A stretch of DNA of 63,967 nucleotides, counting the filler, from Intoshia linei (Eukaryota > Animalia > Orthonectida), in assembly GCA_001642005.1 (NCBI GenBank). It is 8 parts of 8 records of this genome, joined end to end, with 100 filler letters (N's around TTAATTAATTAA, not from the genome) between each part and the next. Parts side by side here need not be neighbours in the genome. Positions count along the whole stretch, not along the records: positions 1 to 11,010 come from LWCA01001217.1; 7 more parts are not named here. The stretch is one strand, 5' to 3'. Made by a program: the position numbers and the translations under genes. The first letter of the stretch is position 1; the number at the start of each line of letters is the position of its first letter. The notes under the pieces are model-generated. The model worked only from the letters and a program-made list of their open reading frames with translations, was not told the DNA's origin and did no database searches. This document shows, in pieces, positions 1-57,625 of this stretch.

Positions 1-1280
1 CATCTTTCTTTCATTTCTCTGATCACGTAAAAAACACAAGTCTTCAGGATGTGTCTTATCAACTCGGCATTTATGTGCTAAATATCGAACAATTTATCAA
101 TTGTATTAATGAAATTATCCTCACGTAATATTTGGAACTTATGTTATATTATATATTATTATTTTATATATTATTATATTATATTATATTATATTAATGT
201 CTATGGCTTTTTTATTAAATTTTATTAATGGTGGGTTAAAGTGGGATTTTTTTAAATTTTTGTATATTTTATTTGAATCTCACGGATCCCAGGCATATAA
301 TTTTAGACCCAATCGAGAACACTGATTTAATTTATACTTATATATTTATAAAAATTACTAATTAATTGCTCGTTAAGGAAATAAAATTTTTTCAGGACCA
401 ATTATTCCCTTAACGAGGAATTAACCTGTATTTTAAGCTAAATCACTTTATACAATGAAATTTTTTTATATATAAGTAAGGATTAATGATTTATTTGTAT
501 GGAAGAATTCAAAAAGCCCCTATTTTCCAGAGCTACCTAGTATCTAGTACCTATTGTTTGTACGAAAAACAGTCAAGCTAGTAAATAAATAAAATAATAA
601 AAATGAATTGCGTAAAACCTAACATTGTAAATTTTACAAAGTGTAGTAACAAATACATGAATTATATTGAACACCTGTAATATACATTGGGTATATGGAA
701 CATGTACTTTATAGTAATTTGGTAATATCAGGTTGTATGTTCTCATTCATGAATAAAATATTTCTTAATACATAATTGTAATTTGTATTTTAAATTTAAT
801 TCGTGTTTTAATTAAACGTGGCGTTAACAAAGTTTTAAAAGGTTATTATACTGAATAAATGAAGTTTGAATTACGTTTAAACTTTAATATCCTCAAAAAA
901 CACGTAAAAAATTGAAAGTATCCTTTATATTAATTAACGTAAGTAAACGGATACAACTTAACAATATATTAATGTCAAAGCCATAGCTACATTTTTTTTA
1001 TATTATTACTGTTAATGAATTAAAATTTTAAAAAATTAAATGCTTCATTGGATTGATGTATTCTTAAAACGGAAACAATGTTTTGAAAGTTTATAATAAT
1101 TACAAAAATAACAGAAGAAGAATCATTCAACTTTCTACAGGTGATTGATTCACGATTGCTAAACACTTTTCGATAAAAATAATTTTTAATTGTATAAAAA
1201 ACTATAAATAGAACATTTTCTAAAAACTATTTGTTTTTCTATTGAATTTTGTTTACTCAGGTGCGATTAAACCAATTTAC

Positions 1281-1286
1281 CACGTG
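1281..1286. promoter_or_regulatory. CACGTG E-box in the ODC 5' leader/intron region
   Basis: Exact CACGTG (CCACGTG) about 200 nt upstream of the ODC ATG. A TATAAATA lies at ~1203. Confidence 0.3.
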
Positions 1287-1332
1287 AAACATATTTTCAT
1301 AGTTAAATTTAGATTATTATATAAAAGGCAAC

Positions 1333-1473
1333 ATTTTGAAACAGTTTGAAAATTTTTGTGAAGGCATTTTGATCACCAACTACTTTTCTCTCCGCTTGAT
1401 CAATCAAAGTCCTGTTGTTTTACATCGTGAAAATATAGATATAAACGCAGAAGTACCTTGGGACCCCAGTTGA
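1333..1473 (+). promoter_or_regulatory. Non-AUG (AUU-initiated) upstream conserved coding region (uCC) of the ODC mRNA, ~46 aa: ILKQFENFCEGILITNYFSLRLINQSPVVLHRENIDINAEVPWDPS*
   Basis: The frame is open from 1303 to TGA 1471-1473 with no ATG. In-frame ATT codons at 1333 (A at -3) and 1366 (G at -3). The C-terminus matches the AZIN1/ODC uCC end as I recall it (VLYREQFDFNAEPPWEPS*). The stop is 8 nt before the ODC ATG at 1482, in a different frame. Confidence 0.88.
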
Positions 1474-1481
1474 TAAAACTA

Positions 1482-4036
1482 ATGGATTGTTCTTATACTT
1501 TTTCAGCTTTGGGAAATTACTTTGATAAAGTAATTCAAGAAAGATCCGACAATGAAAACCATTTTGCTATAATAAACATATCAGAGATTGTAGACAAAAT
1601 TGTACGATGGAAAGCGGTTTTACCACGAGTTCAACCTTTTTATGCGGTGAAATGCAATGACGATCCCGCAATTTTATCTGTAATGGCTTCTGGCGGTGTC
1701 AACTTTGATTGTGCAAGTAAAAATGAAATTATGAGTGTTTTAAATGTTGCAAATTGTAACCGAATTGTGTACGCTAATCCTTGCAAACAAATTTCTCACA
1801 TAAAATACGCCAAAGAAAATGGTGTAACGAAAACCATGTTTGACAATAAGAATGAATTGTACAAAATTAAAAAACATTATTCTGAAGCAGATTTGTTTAT
1901 TCGATTTTGTCCTCCAAAAACTGACAAGGTTATGCTTCCGCTAGGCTTAAAATTTGGATGTTCCATGTCAGAAGTTGAAGAATTATTGCAATGTGCTATT
2001 GATTTGAATCTTAATGTGGTAGGTATTTCCTTCCATGTTGGAAGTGGTTGTTGGGATCTTGATGCTTTTCCGCTGGCTATTCAACAAGCTAGGAAAATAT
2101 TCGATATTGCTCAATCTATAGGGTGTAAAATCGAGTATTTGGATATCGGTGGTGGTTACCCTGGAACAGATGATGGAATTGTGAGTTTTGGACAAGTAAA
2201 TTTATATTTTTTATTTTTTTATACAAATTATACAATTTAATTCAAATCTTTCTAGGTTTCTCAAGGTATTAACGAGTTTTTGGATAAATATTTCCCAGTC
2301 AATATGAATATCAAAATTATAGCTGAACCTGGACGTTATTTTGTTACAACTTGTCTTACGGCTTTTTCTAATATTATTGGAAAACGCACTATTTTTAGAA
2401 CCAATGATGTCACAGATGATCTTATTGTGGATATAGCGGGTAATTATTTTTATAATTACTAAATTTTTTTTGTCAATTCCAAGGAGTCTTTGTTGGTCCA
2501 GTTTTGATCTTTAACCATAATTAAAAAACCAAAAAAGTTAAAACATTTCATAGTTGTTCATTTGATTGAAAAAAATTTTCCGAAACTGAACGACGTGAAA
2601 CGTTTTATGATATTTATATTTACATCTATTTGCACGTATATTTATAAATTTTAGAAACATGAACATTTTTTGAAAAAAAATGTAATATATTTTCATGCTA
2701 AGGGGTGGAATCTTGTTTAATTTTTACTATATATTTTTTATTTTTTATGACTCATTAATAAAGATAATATTATTTCTTGAGTATATTTATCAACCTTATT
2801 GGAAATTTCATCAGGTTTTTTAATGACTATCAATATATGAAATGCTCTTTGAGCATGTCTTATTTGCTAATTTTTTGAAACGATAATTATTTATTAACTA
2901 GGATGCAACAAAAGCGACAAAAGTTTCATGTATTATTTGAACGACGGTGTTTATGGTTTGTTTAATGCAGTATTAACTGAGAATTCCGTTCCAAAATTTT
3001 ATGCTTGTAAATCGGTAATACATTTTATGTACTATATATAGCAAGTACAATGTGTATTAGTAAAAGAAAATGAGTATAAATAAAATCAAATAATAACACT
3101 ATTTTTTGTAAAGTTTACAATCATTTATTAATATAAATACATAAAAAAATAGATTGATGGTAAAGAAAGCGAATTATTTGATTGCAGTATTTGGGGTCCA
3201 ACTTGTGATTGCCTCGATTGTTTAAATAAGCAATGTAAAATGATTGAATGTAATATTGGTGATAAAGTAATGTGTCCTAACATGGGAGCATATTCAACCA
3301 GCATAGCTTGTACTTTTAACGGAATGGAAATACCTGAAATTATGTATTGTATGAAAGACGATTCAAGGTAATTTTTAATAATAATTGTATTAATTTTTAA
3401 ATAATATTTTATGAATAACCAGTTAGTCTTTATTGACCCCTTTTGCGTCATTGTCCAATTTTGTCATTATATTGGAATTAATTTTTTTGGTTTTTGGAAT
3501 AAATTCAAAATTATTGGCGAATAATGGAACCTAGTTTATAGGAAACTGCTAACCAATTTAGTGTTTATAAATTTTACTATTATTTTAAAAAAAAGCAGTA
3601 TTTTATTAACATTTCCTTACATATTTGTTTTATACAATGTATAAATCTGAGCAATAAAACTTAAAACGCTGAGCTGTAAAATGCATATGAAAAATACAAT
3701 TTTTTGACATGCCCTTTATTCAGATCTGAGTACGAGTCCTCGTCGAGGACTGTAGTTTGAAAAAATGTTGGCGAATAACGGACTAGACGAGGTATACTGT
3801 ACAAAATTTTAGAAACACTGATATGCGAGGATTTTATCCAACATAAAAATATTGCATAGTTAGGGTACCCGGAACAAGTTTAATTATTATAATAATTCAA
3901 TTTAATTTTTACTGTACTATATTATTTTAGAAATTACAATACGTACCCATTACAACATTTTACGAATGTTAAAACTCAGACCAAGGTCAGACTAGATGGA
4001 TCAGGCTCTGAAAGTGAACATTATTTTGAATATTAA
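1482..4036 (+). CDS. ODC1: Ornithine decarboxylase family protein, ~443 aa; exons 1482-2195, 2256-2439, 2902-3014, 3153-3367, 3931-4036
   Basis: Motifs PFYAVKCN (PLP lysine), FDCAS, YANPCK, FHVGSG, LDIGGGYPG, AEPGRYF, YYLNDGVYG, WGPTCD, NMGAY, TFNG. All introns are GT-AG with consistent phase. AATAAA follows the stop. The last exon is less certain. Confidence 0.95.
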
Positions 4037-7070: not shown

Positions 7071-7187
7071 CGCATACAATGTAGTGTAATAGTGTAGGAA
7101 AACTTATATTTTAGGATTCCAAAAAAAAATAAAGTACAAGTTATAGTTATATATAATGTAGTTATAGATACTACAATCGTTTTCCAA

Positions 7188-9698
7188 ATGAAAAGAGAAT
7201 TACTGGACGGTACGAATATCTCTGAAATTTTAAAGAAACAAGATGAATTTATAAAATCTGGAAAAGAAACGTCATGTCAATTATCAAAACCGACAAATAA
7301 ACCAGATATATCTGAAACGGTACAAGACATTATATTGAAAACGACGACAAAGAAATTTGTTTATGAAAAAAAAAAGACAAATAAACCAAAACCAATGCAA
7401 GACTATAAAAGTGATTTAAATTATAAATCAAGGTTAAAAGATAAACTGTCAAATAAAATGGAAACTAAAAGTGACACGTGCAGTGAATTGAGTTGTTTAA
7501 ATTTGAAAAGACAAAATAAAATTACAGAAAATGAAGTATTTTTTACTATAAATGGATATTTATCAAATAATGATTATGAAGAATCCTATACGCTGGGAAA
7601 TTTGATAATATTGGTTCAAAGTGTGATTAATCAACAAGTCGTATTTGGAATGAAAATTTTGTCAAACATTGTTAGAAATGAAATTGAGGGAGTTTTCATG
7701 CAGGACAATTTTGATAAAATGCCCATTTTTGTTATTTTTAAAGATTTCAAATTTGGTGACATTTTAAATAGGTTATTGAAATCTTTATCGGAATCAATAA
7801 TATATTGTGTCATGTATTTTTTGTCTAATTTGTTTTACAACGAAAGATACGAGGATGAAATAATTACGCAAAATTTTTATAAATGTCATTTTTATACTCT
7901 TCATTGTGATTTTATTTTTGAAACATTATGTCATGTTTATTTGTTGAAAAAGATTGTTGCGTGTTTACCTATCAATGATCAATTTCGGGCGATTTGTACG
8001 AAGGTGCTTGTTGGTATATTTAATGTAAACTCGGAAATTTCGGATCGCATTGTATGTAATACGCAGTTGTTGGAATATTATCATTTAAAACCAGCCTCTT
8101 TTGAATCTCTATTTTTTATTATAAAATGTTTAAACTTTGGTTCAATCGGTTTAAATTGTGAATTGAACCGTTTACATCAGCAATCTGGCGAAATAAACAG
8201 ATTAGACAACTTTGAATCTTTACTTCGTTTGTATAAAGAAACGTTCCAATATAATGATAAAATTATTCCTTATTTGGACGGCACAGGTACAATGTATTTA
8301 AAAAATCTACATAATGTACCAAAACCCATTGATGGTGTATCTTTATCTACGTTATGTAATAATTTGAATAATAACTTGATAAAATTGAAACAATTTAATT
8401 ATAAGAGTCCTAATATTACTGAAAAATACAATACATGGTTGGTTCACATTAGTTACTTGCACCTAGAAAACTACCTCAACGTTAAAACTAAATTTTTAGA
8501 TTCTTTCAATTTAATTTATAATTTTTCTCATCACTTTAAATTGTCAAATATTGTCCTGTTATACAAAACTTTAAGAAATGTACTAAATATTCAACAGATA
8601 CATTTACTACCACAAATATTGGTTAAATGTATATCTATATTCATTTTTACAGTTAATTCTATTGAAATTAAAAACGATCAAAATATAGATGCAATTTTTA
8701 CATTATTGGACCATTTAATGAAAAAAATGATTCAAGGTTCAGAAAAATTGGTCATTATTATCTTATACACGACATTATATAAACTTTCAGGTAAAATCCT
8801 ATCAATTTCCAAAACTGACATTTGTTCTTATATGGAAGGCTACTTTAATAATTTTGATGATGAAACTAAAAATTTTAAAGATTACACCACAATTTCCGAT
8901 TCCAAGTATGAATTGAAAGAAATGATTTACGCGGCTTGTCCAAAATTTTGGACATTAAATTTTATATTTATATCTCAACCTTGGTATTTGATAGAAAATG
9001 AAACATTTATTAAAAAAATACCATTTTTAAATGTATCTATCCTTATTATAACAAAATATATTAAAATGAATGGAATTTCACACGTTGAGACTCATTTAGA
9101 GCATATATCCAATTTTTTTTTGAATGACGAAATTTACAGTGCATGCTTATGTATTAAAGATACTGTAGATTTACTTTTTTTTACCATGTTTGATATTGTT
9201 CACAAACACAATTTTACTGTTAAATCAGTTGATAAATGGATCAAAATTTTTTATGAAAGTATTCACCAATTTGCCGCAATTTCGTATGGTGATCCCATTT
9301 TTGTAAAGTACATTATTCTTCTTTTAACTTGTTTCAATTGGAATCAACGAATCGATTGCTTATTATTCATTGTCAACAAATTTGATTCTCATGTTGTTAA
9401 TTTGCTAAAGATTCAACATTTTCATTTTCTTAAAAATTTGTTTGTTTTAAATACACCAAAAAATCAATTCTTTAATGTTACTCAAGTTTCGAAAGACAGG
9501 AATTGTATTTTCTTTTTTTTTAATTTTTTTGCAAAGAATTATAAACCAGAAAAGTATTTTAATGTCATTTATTCCATTATTATTATTCTGTTGAATACAT
9601 TTATTTATTTAACCAATGTTTCGAATGAATTTGTTCAAATGCAAAATCACATTTATTTATTTATCTCTAAACACAAAAATTCGGTAATCAAATTCTAA
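7188..9698 (+). CDS. RPAP1: RNA polymerase II-associated protein 1-like, 836 aa, single long exon
   Basis: SYTLGNLIILVQSVINQQVVFGMKILSNI resembles the RPAP1_C motif GYTLxEL..RS...QQ. HQFAAISYGDPIF resembles the C-terminal FAAVSFGD motif. The N-terminal EILKKQDEF also fits. Confidence 0.75.
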   Translation: MKRELLDGTNISEILKKQDEFIKSGKETSCQLSKPTNKPDISETVQDIILKTTTKKFVYEKKKTNKPKPMQDYKSDLNYKSRLKDKLSNKMETKSDTCSELSCLNLKRQNKITENEVFFTINGYLSNNDYEESYTLGNLIILVQSVINQQVVFGMKILSNIVRNEIEGVFMQDNFDKMPIFVIFKDFKFGDILNRLLKSLSESIIYCVMYFLSNLFYNERYEDEIITQNFYKCHFYTLHCDFIFETLCHVYLLKKIVACLPINDQFRAICTKVLVGIFNVNSEISDRIVCNTQLLEYYHLKPASFESLFFIIKCLNFGSIGLNCELNRLHQQSGEINRLDNFESLLRLYKETFQYNDKIIPYLDGTGTMYLKNLHNVPKPIDGVSLSTLCNNLNNNLIKLKQFNYKSPNITEKYNTWLVHISYLHLENYLNVKTKFLDSFNLIYNFSHHFKLSNIVLLYKTLRNVLNIQQIHLLPQILVKCISIFIFTVNSIEIKNDQNIDAIFTLLDHLMKKMIQGSEKLVIIILYTTLYKLSGKILSISKTDICSYMEGYFNNFDDETKNFKDYTTISDSKYELKEMIYAACPKFWTLNFIFISQPWYLIENETFIKKIPFLNVSILIITKYIKMNGISHVETHLEHISNFFLNDEIYSACLCIKDTVDLLFFTMFDIVHKHNFTVKSVDKWIKIFYESIHQFAAISYGDPIFVKYIILLLTCFNWNQRIDCLLFIVNKFDSHVVNLLKIQHFHFLKNLFVLNTPKNQFFNVTQVSKDRNCIFFFFNFFAKNYKPEKYFNVIYSIIIILLNTFIYLTNVSNEFVQMQNHIYLFISKHKNSVIKF

Positions 9699-20519: not shown

Positions 20520-21554
20520 TCAACGAATATCTTCAGAACTGAATCTATCCCAATCATCAGTATTTGAACCTATAATATATTAATTATAATTTTAAAATAC
20601 AAACCATCGGGCTCTGGTCTGGGAGATGGGGTATCATTATTGTCGTTATCTTTTAAAGATTGCGTTTTACCTGCATCTTGAATGTTTGGAACTGTAGGTT
20701 GATTTGACTGTATATGAATATCGGGTTTTATTTTTTGTTTTTTGATAGCGATTGCATTTTTCAATTCTTCTCCACCTACGTAGCGTTTATAAAAATAACG
20801 AGTCCAAAAGGTTTCACGGTCCATCACTTTTGGAACTAATTTTATATAATTTTTAGATAATTGTTGTTGAGTAGCTAAAAGTTGTTCGATATTATCTGCG
20901 ACACAGTTAATATCAAAGGTTAACACCCAAGCGTCATATATAGGATTTGAAGGTATATTTTCCAAAAAGGTATTTTGTGATGTTGCCAGATTTATCAAAA
21001 ACTAAAGAATTTACAAAATTATTATTGACAAAAAATAAAAAAGTACTCTTGCATAAATTTGATCGTATTCCATTTCCTGGAAATCTTCATCGTCCTCCGA
21101 GTCTGGTAATATGACAAGCGCTCTCGAAACAGTACCCAAAAACTTTGTAACTCCAGATTTTACAGCATTTCCCGCGGCAGTAGCGTTTTCAGTCTAATTT
21201 TAAACAATTTTCAATGTAAATAATATTTATATACTGTAGCATTTTCTTTGACATATTTTCCAAGAGAATTTGCATCTTCCGAGATTGTTGATTTTATATC
21301 CAAAAAATCTTTTCGAATTATATTTATTGTTTCAGACGACTAAAATTGATATGATGTTGAGTTTAAGAAATGTTGCATACCTTATCACAAGCAGTTTGCC
21401 AAATGTTGGACCAATTCCAAGAATTTTCTTCATTATTCACATTTTTACCTTCAACTTTTGGTTCACCTTCGATTCTATTAAAATTGATGGTAAACTAAAA
21501 TTTTATCAATTACTTATTTTCGTTTCCCTCTTTCAATTCAGTCGTCTCTTTCAT
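20520..21554 (-). CDS. BSDC1: BSD domain-containing protein 1
   Basis: MKETTELK...WSNIWQTACDK...NAVKSGVTKFLGTVSRAL...YDAWVLTF...KLVPKVMDRETFWTRYFYK...DDWDRFSSEDIR*, with short GT-AG introns. Confidence 0.85.
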
Positions 21555-24242: not shown

Positions 24243-24925
24243 ATTTCATGGCTAATCGTACAATATTTTCATCTTTAGATCTTACGCATGGATATTTGCA
24301 GATTCCATTACAAAAATGTGATCGTTGGAAAACATCATTTTAGACGTCATTTGGGGAAAATTATATCAATATCGGGTAATGCCCCTGCCACATGCCAAAG
24401 ATTAATGGATCAATTATTTAGAAATGTGAAAAACGTTAAGGTTTATTTAGATGATATTATAATAGCATCTACGTCAGTGAATGAACATAAACGAGATTTG
24501 ACAAAAATTTTTACCATTTTACGTAACGCTGGACTAACGGTCAACCCAAAAAAGTGCAAATTGGGAGTTAGTGAACTCAATATTTTAGGACATGTTGTAA
24601 ATTCGGATGGTATTAAAATATCTAATGAAAGGGTCGTAGCGATTGATAATATAGTAGTACCTAAAAATATAAAAAAATTGCGTAGATTTTTAGGTGTATG
24701 TAATTTTTTCCGACGCTTTATATCTCATTACACAGAGATAACTGAACCCTTATTATTACTATTAAAGAAAAGTGTAGCTTTTGTATGGCAGGAAAACCAA
24801 CACTCGGCTTATATGTCATTAAAAAAGGCTCTTAAGTCTTCACCACTTCTATCATTACCTCAAAAGAATTATGATTTTATATTATAATGTGATGCTTCTA
24901 AAGTTGGAGTTGGTGCTATTATATT
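24243..24925 (+). mobile_element. Ty3/Gypsy pol remnant (RT to RNase H start), frameshifted
   Basis: SSLDLTHGYLQI, NAPATCQR, YLDDII, LGHVV, LRRFLGVCNFFRRFI, then FIL*CDASKVGVGA. Confidence 0.9.
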
Positions 24926-52899: not shown

Positions 52900-54014
52900 C
52901 TCCAAAACCAAATATACGATGAGTATCATTATGACGATGGGACACCTTCGTAGTTATAATAGCGTTTGCCTCTCGTACACTATCAAAAGCAAAGCAACAC
53001 AATTCAGCATCTGAAAAAGAGGCATTAGCAATCGTGGTATGCATATTAAAGTGGCAGCCTTATGTATTATGTAGGAAATTTATATTACGCACTGATCATA
53101 AAAAAATTAATTACTCTATTAAATTCTTATAAAAATGGCCACACTGCTGCTTGAATTGCACGTTGGTGTATTCTTATTCGACTATATCAATATTCACTGG
53201 AATATATCGCCGGTACTCAGAATATCATAGCTGATACATTATCGAGATTACTTTCATATGATGCAGAATTAGATAACAACGAAATATTATATGTACAACG
53301 ACATTGTATAGAAAATCACGAAGCAAGAACACATCTTGATACGATTCGAACATTGCCACATACAGATCCAGAAATTACAAATGTGGTGAATTCTCTCAAT
53401 AACTCTCATCTTGTTGGAGTTTTATACAGAGGTGAAAATCAAGTAGTAGTTCCAAAAGACTTTCGATTGAAAATTGTAGAAATAGCTTCCAAATGGCATG
53501 CAGTAATTGAATCCTGTAAAAGGTAAATCAAAATGTATTATTGGTTTCTGGAATGAACGCAGTAGTGGAAGATTATGTAAAATGCTGTATATATTGTCAA
53601 TCAAGTGATAAAAAGATTAAATTGCAAGAGTCATCAATACATCCTATTGAATTACCTGAATCGAGATGGAACGTACTTGGAGTTGTTTTTATTGGACCGT
53701 CGGAATTTTCAAATATTGAAGAAAAGCACGCCATCGTGGTAGATCTATTTTCTAAGTGGCCGGAAGTTAAATTCATCAAAGCTCAAACAAGCGAAAATGC
53801 AATTAAATTTTTACGTGAAATCTTCGCTCGTGAAGGACTTCCACACAATTTAATAACGGATAACGGTGTTCAATTCACATCAAGTGAATTTGAAATTTTC
53901 TTAAAAAAATTACAAATAAAACATGCTAGAACAGCAAACTATCACCCGCAATCTAATGGCCAAACTGAGCGATTTAACAAGACACTGAAACAAAGATTAA
54001 AAATCGCTGTAAAG
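52900..54014 (+). mobile_element. Ty3/Gypsy RNase H-integrase remnant, truncated by a hAT insertion
   Basis: IAFASRTLS...EKEALAIV...LRTDHK, NIIADTLSR, VDLFSKWPEV, LITDNGVQFTS, YHPQSNGQTERFNKTLK. Confidence 0.92.
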
Positions 54015-55319
54015 CAGTGGTTCTTAAACTTTTTTGACCTATGCATCCCTGATTAAAAATCAATTATACACTATTAATTATAAATGAAGTGTTAACTAGT
54101 TACTTAAATTAAACGGAAAAAATTTTTAAAAATGGACCTCTATACATTAATTAATCGAACGTTCATTATCTAAAAATTAAAAATAACCATTGGAAATCGC
54201 ATTAATTATCGAAATTATGATATAATTAAGAAATTTTTCATCAATACCTATTAATAAATTAAAAAAAGTAGGCCCTCATGATTGTAGACACGGGAAATAT
54301 GACCCTCTCCACGACCCTGTCTGTACTTACTTCAAACCTTTATAAAAATGAAAACTTGTCAACTATCATATCAACTAAAAGCTTTGTAAGTACAATTGTA
54401 TGTTGTACTACTGCAATATTCAGTAGATACATTAGCTATTTTCCATTGAAAAATATCGGAAAAAGTAGTAGCCCTGGTCATACCACCAAATTCATTAATT
54501 AAAAGTAGTCTATTCAAATATTATTAAAGACTCAGAAAATAGACGAATTAAATAGTTTAAAAACTTTTACATAACAATTGAACAAATTTATTTACATACA
54601 TTTTAATGGGATCGTTAATGTTGTTTGAAATGAAAAGTAAGCTAAATCTTCGCATTATTTTTGATAAGCTCATATCATATTGGCACGGACATCTAATTTA
54701 TATATTTTTTTTTTTAATTTGTTAGAATAGAAAATTCAGCTTCACAAAACTATGTTGTGAAAAAAGTAATAATTACTTCAAGAGCAATTTCAGTCACCAA
54801 TGGATAGATATTAAGCATACTACACTAAAAACCACCAAATATCACATTTAAAGCTATCATAGTCATATATAATATATTTCCCAAAGGGCCACTAGAAAAA
54901 TCAAGGGATCATAAAAATCAAATCAAAAATCAAGAAAATTTCTATTTGGGGCCAAAGTAAATTATACATTGTAAGGCCCATAAAAAATTTTATATATAAT
55001 TTATTTCGAATACATCAATTCTTTTGTAGTTTTATTTAATGACTCACAAAACAGATATTCTTCCTTAATGTTATTATTCACAACATATCTTGCAAATACA
55101 TCAGTAATTTCATCCAATTGTAAACTAAATTTTACTAGGCTTTTTCGAAGTTCATCTATAACTTGAAGTTCAATAACTTCGGCTAAATTATTAATCCTTT
55201 TACGAAGGAATTGATTTAAGTGCCCCTTTTTGTTTATCGCCAAGTAGAAGTTCAGCAATGTTAACAGTACAGGGTTTGATCAACGTTTCCGATGGTATGA
55301 TGCTTTTTTTGTTTAGAAA
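54015..55319 (-). mobile_element. Second copy of the Buster hAT element at 4802-6814, running into a gap
   Basis: Same TIR, preceded by CTGTAAAG (nnnTAnnn). Collinear with 4802-6210. Transposase fragment FSLQLDEITD...IKEEYLFC. Confidence 0.9.
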
Positions 55320-55546: not shown

Positions 55547-57625
55547 TTATTCTTTTGTTTCTGGTATATCTTCATTATTATTTGTTTTACCTAGATTTTC
55601 AATTTCAGCATTAGGTTCTTCTGTTGGAATGTCAGTAGTTTTTTCAATATTATCAGTTGATGTTTCATTTTTAATTTCTGTTATATTTTCATCAGGATTA
55701 TCTTGATTGTCAGTTTTATCTAAACTTTCTATAATAGTTTCATCGAAATTTTCCTTGTCATTTTCAGTGGTTTCGTTATTCGTTTCTTTAACGTTTAGTT
55801 CTTTTTCTGTTACTGGTATTTCAGTTTTTTCATAATTTGGTGGTAATTCTTCTGTGGTAGCCTCATGTTCATTTTCTCTTTCATCTACATTCGTTTTAAT
55901 ATCTTCATTTTCTTCTTCAGTTTTTTCAGTTAAATATGTATCATCATTCTTTGTATCAATCTCAACGTCCTTTTCAGCAGTTTCAAAATCTTCCAATTCT
56001 TTGTTTTCTATTGTTTCAAGGTTTTCTTTAGAATCTTCAACGTTTTCAATAGATTTTTCTTTTTTTTGTGCATTTGATATTTCAGTCTTTTCCACTGATT
56101 CAGTAATTTCATTAGCATTACCGGTTTCTTCAGATTCAACATTTTCATTGACCTCGGTCACTTCGTTTTCTGATTCAATTTCTTTTAAAGCATCTTCGTA
56201 AGTTTTACCTGCCTCATCTGCTTTAACTTCATTGGGTTGAACAACTTTTAATTCTAATGGTTCAATAACTTCTTTAGTGTCTGTTTTTAATTTTTCTATA
56301 TTTTCATCATCTTTTTTTTCAATTATTTCAGGACTTTCTTCTTCAATATTTGTAACATTTTCATCAGCTGAACTTTTTTCTTCTGTTTTGGTAATCTCTA
56401 CAAAATTATCTTGAATTTCTTTACTTTCTTTTTCTATTGGAGTATCATTTACTGTAACATTTTTACTATCTTCTTTTTCTTTTGGCTCCGTTACCTCTTT
56501 AGTAAGTTCAGAATTATTTGTAATTTCTTTTGATTTATCTTGTTGTTTATCAGGTGCACTATTCTCGACAATATTAGTAGTCGGTTCAATTTCTTTATGT
56601 TTTATTGGTTCCTTTATTTTATCGCTAGAAACTTGTGATATTTCAGTCGTTTCTTTCTCTATCATTTTTTCTTCTATTTTCGCATCTCCTTCTTCAGCTT
56701 TAACATCATCTTTATCAGCAAATTTGTTGATGTGCTTGGATTTATCGGACCTAACTTTCATACCTTTAAACCCTGCCTGTATTTTTATCGCGGCTTCATC
56801 TTCTGTCATACTAGGTCGTTTTTCTTGTGAAATTTCTTTATTGATATTTTCTTCGCTTTTAGTTTCAATTTCCTTGTTTTCGTCATCACTAATTTTCTCT
56901 AATGTTTCTTTTTCATCAGTTTTCACTTCAACGTCGTTTGGTTCATCTTGTGATGTATTTTCTAATAGATTTTTTTTTTTTTCCTTCACTTCTTTACGTG
57001 CTTTCATTCCTCTGAAACTAGATTGTATTTTTATTGCAGCTTCATTTTCATCCATTTCAGATTTTTGATTTGATTTATCTTCATCATCCTCAACCTTGTC
57101 AATATTTTCAAATTTTTTAGATTCTTCTAAATCCTCTTTTTTTGTTGAATCATCACTTTTAAGAGTTTCAGTTTCAGTTTCATTCAGTTTGTTTTTTTTG
57201 ATATTGTCCACTTTTGTTTTTGCTTTATAGTTTTCATCATTGGTTTGAATATCAATTGCAGTCTCTTTTTCAATATTATCATTTTTATCTTCAGACGATG
57301 TCGACACTTGTTCATTTTCCGATTTGGAGTTTTTTTTATATTTTACTTTCATATTCAAATTGTTGTAAAAGTTGTCTTCCTTTTTTGCAGCTTCAATGCA
57401 ATAGTCGACACCTGTTTCGTCTCTATATTTAATTAAATTTTCAAAATATACTGCTGAAAAAGCTATAACGTCTTTTGGTTGTTCTCTCAGAACCTATTTA
57501 AATTAGAAATAATCAAAACATTTTAAAAACGTTAAAAAATATTATACCTCGCGTGATAATCCTTCCAATAAACTTCTAAATCCCATTGGGACACGGAGTG
57601 TCGTGTTTGAAAACGGTACAGACAT
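55547..57625 (-). CDS. SPA17: Sperm surface protein Sp17-like, ~674 aa (RIIa D/D domain, 2 IQ motifs, long acidic tail); exons 57548-57625 and 55547-57493
   Basis: MSVPFSNTTLRVPMGFRSLLEGLSRE|VLREQPKDVIAFSAVYFENL...EDNFYNN. IQ motifs AAIKIQSSFRGMKARK and AAIKIQAGFKGMKVR. Confidence 0.9.

What the first reader, a model, noticed from the sequence alone, without database searches (positions are those of the whole stretch)
1444..1473. The uCC stall motif is a natural variant: VPW instead of PPW, with PS-stop retained
Seen in sequence: AAC GCA GAA GTA CCT TGG GAC CCC AGT TGA = N-A-E-V-P-W-D-P-S-*. Established: the PPW diprolyl motif is the eIF5A-dependent elongation pause in the AZIN1 uCC. Pro-Ser-stop is a separate polyamine/eIF5A-sensitive termination motif (yeast HOL1 uORF MLLLPS*, plant AdoMetDC uORF). 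Inference: CCN->GTA needs two base changes, so it is unlikely to be a sequencing error. Sensing here may have shifted to the PS* termination step or have a different threshold, making this a natural test that separates the two mechanisms.
Basis: partly seen in the sequence, partly recalled or inferred. Interest (0 to 1): 0.78.

Follow-up and report, generated by a model that had tools for sequence, protein, structure and literature searches.

The report
Parasite's polyamine sensor swaps stall motif
The leader of this tiny parasitic worm's ornithine decarboxylase gene carries a known start-codon-less upstream reading frame in which the usual Pro-Pro-Trp ribosome-pause motif has become Val-Pro-Trp, a swap that likely keeps the pause working, because published E. 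coli data rank Val-Pro-Trp as the strongest pause of all twenty X-Pro-Trp motifs.

Summary
1444-1473 reads NAEVPWDPS*, the end of an animal-type uCC on the leader of an ornithine decarboxylase gene (identical to an Intoshia linei protein). GTA at 1453-1455 is in 6 of 6 runs laid, two studies (contigs, not reads). VPW is rare: 0 of 21 other uCCs found (19 PPW, 1 RPW, 1 APW). In E. coli lacking EF-P, VPW is the 5th strongest factor-dependent pause of about 7,900 tripeptides, above PPW, while APW and RPW score about 0. Yeast eIF5A lists include IPW, WDP and DPS, but not VPW. So Pro-to-Val likely keeps the eIF5A-dependent elongation pause; nothing was measured here. Side result: 9 invertebrate uCCs carry a conserved 17-19 codon coding extension after their UGA stop, likely readthrough; Intoshia blocks it with tandem stops and has the ODC AUG 8 nt after the uCC stop. 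The scan noted uCCs before in two other genomes, not VPW. Three key uCC papers were unreadable.

The parts
1023..1140 (+). Leader exon, isoform A (5' end is only where a contig stops); holds three short AUG uORFs starting at 1040, 1056 and 1078 and a second in-frame AUU candidate at 1125 (58 codons)
   Evidence: Joint 1140>1313, GT..AG, in contigs of X3 and X5; uORFs and starts
1111..1260 (+). Leader exon, isoform B (later donor at 1261); no upstream AUG in this isoform as far as the contig reaches
   Evidence: Joint 1260>1313 in X2
1333..1473 (+). uCC, 46 codons from the candidate AUU (A at -3) to TGA; lies wholly in the exon shared by all isoforms; the frame is open further upstream and has no in-frame AUG
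   Evidence: 14 of 17 ODC-linked transcript loci start at AUU-CCR 44-49 codons from the stop. Initiation itself is inferred
1453..1461 (+). Val-Pro-Trp, replacing Pro-Pro-Trp; predicted eIF5A-dependent elongation pause
   Evidence: pause strength borrowed from E. coli EF-P data
1459..1473 (+). Trp-Asp-Pro-Ser-stop: holds WDP, DPS and the Pro-Ser-stop termination motif
   Evidence: yeast eIF5A motif list; Pro-Ser-stop in HOL1 from review passages
1474..1482 (+). 8-nt spacer with two further in-frame stops (TAA at 1474 and at 1480, the second sharing its last base with the ODC AUG)
   Evidence: spacers are 63-165 nt in 17 other loci
1501..1533 (+). Possible relic of the post-stop extension seen in other invertebrates, in the uCC frame, overlapping the ODC start in another frame; weak
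   Evidence: PSSM rank 134 of 127,864 positions; p about 0.007-0.06 by number of offsets allowed
1482..2195 (+). ODC coding exon 1 (continuous with the leader exon from 1313); only in-frame AUG upstream of the PLP lysine
   Evidence: PF02784 E 1e-63; P0001 100% identity
2256..2439 (+). ODC coding exon 2
   Evidence: Joints in 5 spliced contigs
2902..3014 (+). ODC coding exon 3
   Evidence: Joints in 5 spliced contigs
3153..3367 (+). ODC coding exon 4 with the catalytic WGPTCD motif
   Evidence: PF00278; spliced frame open over 408 codons with all catalytic motifs
3931..4036 (+). Last ODC coding exon of the 443-aa form; alternatives are an acceptor at 3813 (419 aa) or intron retention (409 aa)
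   Evidence: Joints 3367>3931 (X2, X5, X6), 3367>3813 (X5), retained (X3)

Best explanation
This is the Intoshia copy of the animal uCC on an ornithine decarboxylase leader, and its Val-Pro-Trp likely still works as the eIF5A-dependent elongation pause that Pro-Pro-Trp provides elsewhere. Shown: the sequence, its place in spliced transcripts-derived contigs, homology to other uCCs, and conservation of the peptide. Inferred, by analogy with AZIN1: most scanning ribosomes skip the weak AUU at 1333 and start ODC at 1482. When polyamines are high, eIF5A works poorly, and the few uCC ribosomes would stall with Pro in the P site and Trp in the A site, probably helped by the retained WDP, DPS and Pro-Ser-stop steps. 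Scanning ribosomes would queue back over the same 46 codons as in other animals, more would start at the AUU, and ODC synthesis would fall. With only 8 nt between the uCC stop and the ODC AUG, re-initiation is predicted to be negligible.
For: (1) Purifying selection on the peptide: against 13 other uCCs, 9-11 of the last 16 residues are identical while synonymous sites are at or near saturation (pN 0.18-0.31, pS 0.57-1.36). The upstream Pro that is invariant in the alignment is kept too. (2) Geometry kept: AUU with A at -3 at 46 codons, inside the 44-49 range of 14 loci; no AUG in the 169 nt of shared leader and an open frame, together in 0 of 3,000 shuffles (1.3% and 2.0% singly). (3) All 20 X-Pro-Trp motifs in E. 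coli EF-P knockout minus wild type: V 24, P 17, I 13, H 3, K 1.2, D/E/N 1, L/R/S/T 0.5, A/C/F/G/M/Q/W/Y 0; VPW ranks 5th of about 7,900 tripeptides (PMC11611912 Suppl. Data 3A). Only 2 of 19 replacements keep a strong pause, and Intoshia has one of them. Ala, Asp, Glu and Gly codons also start with G yet score 0-1, so EF-P's liking for G in the E-site codon does not explain it. (4) Yeast eIF5A-dependent motifs include PPW and IPW in the same column, plus WDP and DPS (PMC5499558 Fig. S4). (5) The main gene keeps all catalytic motifs, so polyamine feedback on it makes sense.
Against: No pause, initiation or polyamine response was measured for this mRNA. The VPW ranking is bacterial; eIF5A lacks EF-P's E-site-codon domain (PMC13602936), and VPW is absent from the yeast list (0 hits; the full yeast dataset was not held). 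In that E. coli table WDP and DPS show no dependence. Landing on V or I by chance has odds near 2 in 19, so this is suggestive only. The AUU-CCR start signature of other animals is lost (AUU-UUG here), and other near-cognate starts exist. RPW and APW uCCs exist, so the first Pro can apparently be lost without a pause-keeping residue. Mouse disome data put the strongest Azin1 uCC signal upstream of PPW (10.1101/710061). Whether Intoshia has eIF5A, hypusination and antizyme could not be checked (no genome held).
Confidence: 0.6

Rival explanations
1. One reading: VPW no longer pauses, and polyamine sensing now rests on slow, eIF5A-dependent termination at Pro-Ser-stop, as in yeast HOL1.
For: Pro-Ser-stop is intact and invariant in the 19-row alignment (fixed in part by the search pattern). 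HOL1 shows the motif can act alone (review passages). VPW is not on the yeast eIF5A list. A ribosome held at the stop would cover the ODC AUG 8 nt away (inference). RPW and APW uCCs suggest the first Pro is dispensable.
Against: VPW outranks PPW in EF-P-dependent pausing and IPW is eIF5A-dependent in yeast. WDP and DPS offer further elongation pauses, so the split would not be clean.
Confidence: 0.17
2. The uCC is still translated and conserved but acts as a fixed damper on ODC, or is decaying, with little polyamine response in a parasite that can draw on host polyamines.
For: Several erosions coincide: Pro to Val, loss of AUU-CCR, loss of the post-stop extension, spacer cut to 8 nt. Isoform A adds three AUG uORFs.
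Against: Strong peptide conservation with saturated synonymous sites, kept length and AUG avoidance; the changed residue is the one that best keeps a factor-dependent pause.
Confidence: 0.17
3. The frame is the N-terminal part of ODC itself, joined by a 38-nt intron at 1469-1506 as in the public gene model P0001.
For: GT..AG ends and a frame-keeping join exist; P0001 is annotated that way.
Against: 5 of 5 spliced contigs run through 1311-2195 without that joint; the peptide matches uCCs that end in a stop in other animals. Contigs drop rare forms, so a minor isoform is not excluded.
Confidence: 0.04
4. GTA is an assembly or sequencing error, or the motif is a chance match.
For: Only contigs were available, no raw reads.
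Against: Same letters in 6 of 6 runs from two studies; HMM and shuffle tests.
Confidence: 0.02

Closest known systems
Animal uCC of ODC homologues, including vertebrate AZIN1 (Ivanov et al. 2008 and 2018, seen only through PMC2811004 section 6 and review passages)
   Same: In the leader of an ODC homologue; about 46-52 codons; no in-frame AUG, AUU candidate with purine at -3; tail N-A-E-x-P-W-[DE]-P-S-stop; 10 of last 16 residues identical to human.
   Different: Val for the first Pro; no Pro after the AUU; main AUG 8 nt after the stop (63-165 nt in 17 other loci); the regulated gene is a predicted active ODC, as in most of the invertebrate loci, not an antizyme inhibitor.
Single-proline EF-P/eIF5A-dependent pause motifs (VPW, IPW, IPI; PMC11611912, PMC5499558)
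   Same: Identical tripeptide VPW, with Pro in the P site and Trp next.
   Different: Described inside ordinary bacterial and yeast coding sequences, not as the sensor of a regulatory uORF; VPW itself is on record only for E. coli in what I could read.
Pro-Ser-stop uORFs of yeast HOL1 and plant AdoMetDC
   Same: Ends in Pro-Ser-stop ahead of a polyamine-pathway gene.
   Different: HOL1's is a 6-codon AUG uORF; this one is long, non-AUG, homologous to the AZIN1 uCC and still has an X-Pro-Trp motif.
AMD1 stop-codon readthrough tail (PMC13025110, abstract start in a search listing; 10.1101/710061 passage)
   Same: A conserved in-frame extension beyond a stop in a polyamine-pathway mRNA, like the extension found here after invertebrate uCC stops.
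   Different: AMD1's follows the main ORF and is 384 nt; the uCC extension is 17-19 codons in the leader, and is blocked in this window.

Membership tests
Animal uCC of ODC homologues (by descent) | Lies in the 5' leader of an ODC-homologue mRNA | tested here: met
   Spliced contigs carry it in one exon with the ODC start; PF02784
Animal uCC of ODC homologues (by descent) | Conserved C-terminal residues | tested here: met
   HMM 30.8 bits without the window row; 9-11 of 16 identical to 13 loci; 10 of 16 to human
Animal uCC of ODC homologues (by descent) | Ends in Pro-Ser-stop | tested here: met
   feature from PMC2811004
Animal uCC of ODC homologues (by descent) | About 50 codons, no in-frame AUG, in-frame AUU in good context | tested here: met
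   AUU at 1333, A at -3, 46 codons; no in-frame AUG. Use of this codon is not shown
Canonical PPW-stall uCC (AZIN1 type) | Two adjacent prolines before Trp | tested here: not met
   Val-Pro-Trp in window and 6 of 6 runs; so filed as a variant, not a canonical member
Canonical PPW-stall uCC (AZIN1 type) | AUU followed by a Pro codon | tested here: not met
   AUU-UUG here; AUU-CCR in 14 of 17 transcript loci and Ile-Pro in human
Canonical PPW-stall uCC (AZIN1 type) | Polyamine- and eIF5A-dependent stall, queuing and repression of the main ORF | not testable with these tools
   Needs reporters, toeprints or profiling; only proxy data from E. coli and yeast
HOL1-type Pro-Ser-stop uORF | Short AUG-initiated uORF | tested here: not met
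   No in-frame AUG; at least 46 codons by the best start
HOL1-type Pro-Ser-stop uORF | Polyamine-inhibited termination at Pro-Ser-stop | not testable with these tools
   Motif present; activity unmeasured
Active ornithine decarboxylase (versus antizyme inhibitor) | PLP lysine, HVGSG, DIGGG, EPGR and catalytic WGPTCD motifs in one open spliced frame | tested here: met
   activity itself not assayed

The most novel reading that the evidence does not exclude
The ancestral animal uCC has a second, unreported layer: leaky termination at Pro-Ser-UGA lets ribosomes read through into a conserved 17-19 residue tail, kept across several invertebrate lineages. Intoshia shut that readthrough with tandem stops, pulled the ODC start to 8 nt from the stop, and kept polyamine sensing through a Val-Pro-Trp pause, showing that selection preserves eIF5A dependence rather than diproline.
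Probability: 0.3. Interest if true: 0.7.

Novelty: new variant of a known kind. Interest (0 to 1): 0.45.

Why it matters
The uCC is the model case of eIF5A acting as a polyamine sensor, and its diproline is treated as the core. A natural uCC that swapped Pro for the residue that best keeps a factor-dependent pause would show that the selected property is eIF5A dependence, and that bacterial pause rules carry over to animal ribosomes. It gives a cheap, ordered allelic series (PPW, VPW, IPW, RPW, APW, each with or without Pro-Ser-stop) with a prior prediction. It also corrects a public gene model that fuses the uCC to ODC. The post-stop extension in other invertebrates may be the larger lead, since it bears directly on whether termination at Pro-Ser-stop is a regulated step.

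Tried and rejected
No genome is held, so paralogues, eIF5A, hypusination enzymes and antizyme were not checked. No RNA holder is listed as such; transcript origin of X2-X6 is inferred from their lacking GT-AG introns. Protein searches for other uCC peptides failed: no candidates with the window peptide, only P0001 among 1.84 billion representatives, none of 30 candidates with alignment A1, Atlas hits under 0.8. Pattern scans of viral contigs (2 hits) and prokaryote genomes (1 hit) gave chance matches only. Of 28 metagenome hits, 7 were dropped as chance (L005, L009, L018, L022, L023, L026, L028: no ODC nearby; at most 15 bits or too short to score). The pattern fixed N-A-E, the second Pro, Trp, Asp/Glu and Pro, so variation there is invisible. 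An RNA structure for the post-stop extension was rejected (consensus -0.37 kcal/mol, 0 compensated pairs). A conserved splice acceptor there was rejected because its end alternates TAG and TAA and the branch-like word is not kept. The other 5' exon of X6 was not found in the window. Not readable here: Ivanov 2008, Ivanov 2018, Dever and Ivanov 2018, Vindu 2021, Schuller 2017, Woolstenhulme 2015; their alignments, alanine scans and supplements may already show non-PPW uCCs, single-Pro mutants or the extension. Paper searches listed nothing on a VPW uCC, an Intoshia uCC or uCC readthrough; for only 20 of 6,052 papers were listed, none naming Intoshia.

Full report
Observation. The window reads N-A-E-V-P-W-D-P-S-stop at 1444-1473, with GTA at 1453-1455, followed by TAA AAC TA and an ATG at 1482. 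The ORF from 1482 is an ornithine decarboxylase (PF02784, E 1e-63), 100% identical to a protein labelled Intoshia linei, an orthonectid (that it is a parasite of marine worms is recalled). The spliced frame is open over 408 codons and keeps the PLP lysine and the catalytic Cys motif. Six public runs hold the stretch. All six were laid: one unspliced and five spliced contigs cover 1453-1455 with no other letter listed there. They come from two studies, one of which may be the assembly's source. These are contigs, so rare variants would be missed.

Anatomy. Spliced contigs put the uCC and the ODC start in one exon from 1313. It is joined to a donor at 1140 (X3, X5), at 1260 (X2), or to a 5' piece not found in the window (X6). 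The uCC frame has no in-frame AUG. The best candidate start is AUU at 1333 (A at -3), giving 46 codons; isoform A offers another at 1125 and has three short AUG uORFs. An open frame and no AUG over the shared 169 nt occurred together in 0 of 3,000 shuffles (the frame's end was chosen after seeing it). The public model P0001 splices the uCC onto ODC through 1469-1506, but 5 of 5 spliced contigs keep that stretch.

Survey. A scan of JGI metagenome contigs for N-A-E-x-P-W-[DE]-P-S-stop gave 28 loci. 19 have an ODC downstream in the locus. L010 resembles the human AZIN1 uCC, and L007 scores 27.4 bits and looks like a uCC exon ending at a donor inside the Ser codon. 7 were dropped as chance. Among these 21 (19 after merging two near-duplicate pairs) there are 19 PPW, 1 RPW and 1 APW, and no VPW. 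The RPW copy (L008) sits on an ODC paralogue whose PLP lysine is Gln. RPW and APW are each one base from a Pro codon and rest on one contig. In 14 of 17 transcript-like loci the uCC starts AUU-CCR, 44-49 codons from the stop, and the ODC AUG is 63-165 nt after the stop in all 17. Intoshia keeps the length but not the Pro after AUU, and its spacer is 8 nt. Its tail is under purifying selection: 9-11 of 16 residues identical to 13 loci with synonymous sites near saturation.

Does VPW still pause? A passage in PMC13055313 led to PMC11611912, where I read section 8, passages and rows of Supplementary Data 3A. In E. coli lacking EF-P, VPW is 5th of about 7,900 tripeptides (25 versus 1 in wild type), above PPW (18 versus 1, 11th). 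Over all 20 X-Pro-Trp motifs the gain is V 24, P 17, I 13, H 3, and 1.2 or less for the other 16. The paper confirmed IPW in vitro. In yeast (PMC5499558, passages and part 1 of 2 of the supplement, whole file searched) the eIF5A-dependent lists include PPW, IPW, GPW, NPW, WDP and DPS, but not VPW; these were read from a figure's text layer. Against transfer: eIF5A lacks the EF-P domain that reads the E-site codon (PMC13602936, passages), and WDP and DPS show no EF-P dependence in E. coli. For transfer: other G-starting codons (Ala, Asp, Glu, Gly) score 0-1, so the side chain matters more than the base. Two of 19 replacements keep a strong pause, so a chance landing has odds near 1 in 10.

Mechanism. 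The AZIN1 model (seen through PMC2811004 section 6 and passages of PMC11058473, PMC10855120, PMC9788402, PMC11550727, PMC4458265, PMC11818727) is leaky AUU initiation, polyamine-inhibited eIF5A, a stall at PPW, queuing, and repression of the main ORF. Every part has a counterpart here, with VPW as the likely stall. All functional steps are inferred. I give this 0.6, the shift to Pro-Ser-stop 0.17, and a fixed or decaying damper 0.17. One paper places the strongest mouse disome peak upstream of PPW (10.1101/710061, passages), a caution on the stall site in general.

Side result. In 9 loci (8 distinct) the uCC's UGA is followed by 17-19 open codons of conserved peptide and a second stop; two genomic loci show its first 11 codons before a donor. 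In the 7 gap-free distinct copies, third positions vary in 16 of 17 codons and second positions in 6 of 17 (Fisher p 0.0008; related sequences are not independent). pN/pS is 0.25, against 0.19 for the uCC tail itself, though one other frame also falls below 1 (0.46, with 8 stops). There is no RNA structure. It is broken in all 5 UAG-ending loci and in 4 UGA-ending ones, including the vertebrate-like L010. Readthrough is the simplest reading; it is untested. Intoshia has two more in-frame stops at once, and only a weak possible relic (p 0.007-0.06). Searches listed no paper on it, but the primary uCC papers could not be read.

Earlier scan notes describe uCCs in a chytrid and in another animal; neither has VPW, and I did not test them. 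Look-ups by sequence and by place found nothing.

Verdict. A real, new variant of a known regulatory element. Interest 0.45; higher if the readthrough tail proves real and unreported.

Noticed in passing
L001, L002, L003, L006, L008, L015, L017, L020, L027 (just after each uCC stop); first part in L011, L019: A conserved in-frame 17-19 codon extension follows the uCC's UGA and ends at a second stop, with codon-type variation and no RNA structure; likely stop-codon readthrough. Broken in all five UAG-ending loci.
   Followed up: partly
L008:211-240 and its ODC homologue: RPW uCC with intact start and extension, on an ODC paralogue with Gln for the PLP lysine: a candidate invertebrate antizyme inhibitor. 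One contig only.
   Followed up: partly
L007:548-577 (- strand): Probable uCC exon with APW, ending at a GT donor inside the Ser codon; no ODC in the 550 nt held.
   Followed up: partly
window 1469-1506: Public gene model P0001 splices out 38 nt and fuses the uCC to ODC; no spliced contig shows this, so it is likely a mis-annotation.
   Followed up: yes
window 1023-1312: At least three leader forms: donor 1140, donor 1260 and an unplaced 5' piece in X6; only the first has AUG uORFs.
   Followed up: partly
window 3368-4036: Three ODC 3' ends (409, 419, 443 aa) from intron retention or two acceptors; may matter for degradation signals in the C-terminus.
   Followed up: no
window 7098-9698 (+): 866-codon open frame with no Pfam match.
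   Followed up: no
window 24279-24887 and 53520-54056 (+): Retroelement fragments: reverse transcriptase and integrase domains.
   Followed up: no
window 55547-57493 (-) and 20570-21001 (-): An IQ-motif protein with a weak RIIa match, and a BSD-domain exon.
   Followed up: no
window 230-430: Many short partial contig matches with differing flanks, suggesting a dispersed repeat upstream of the ODC gene.
   Followed up: no
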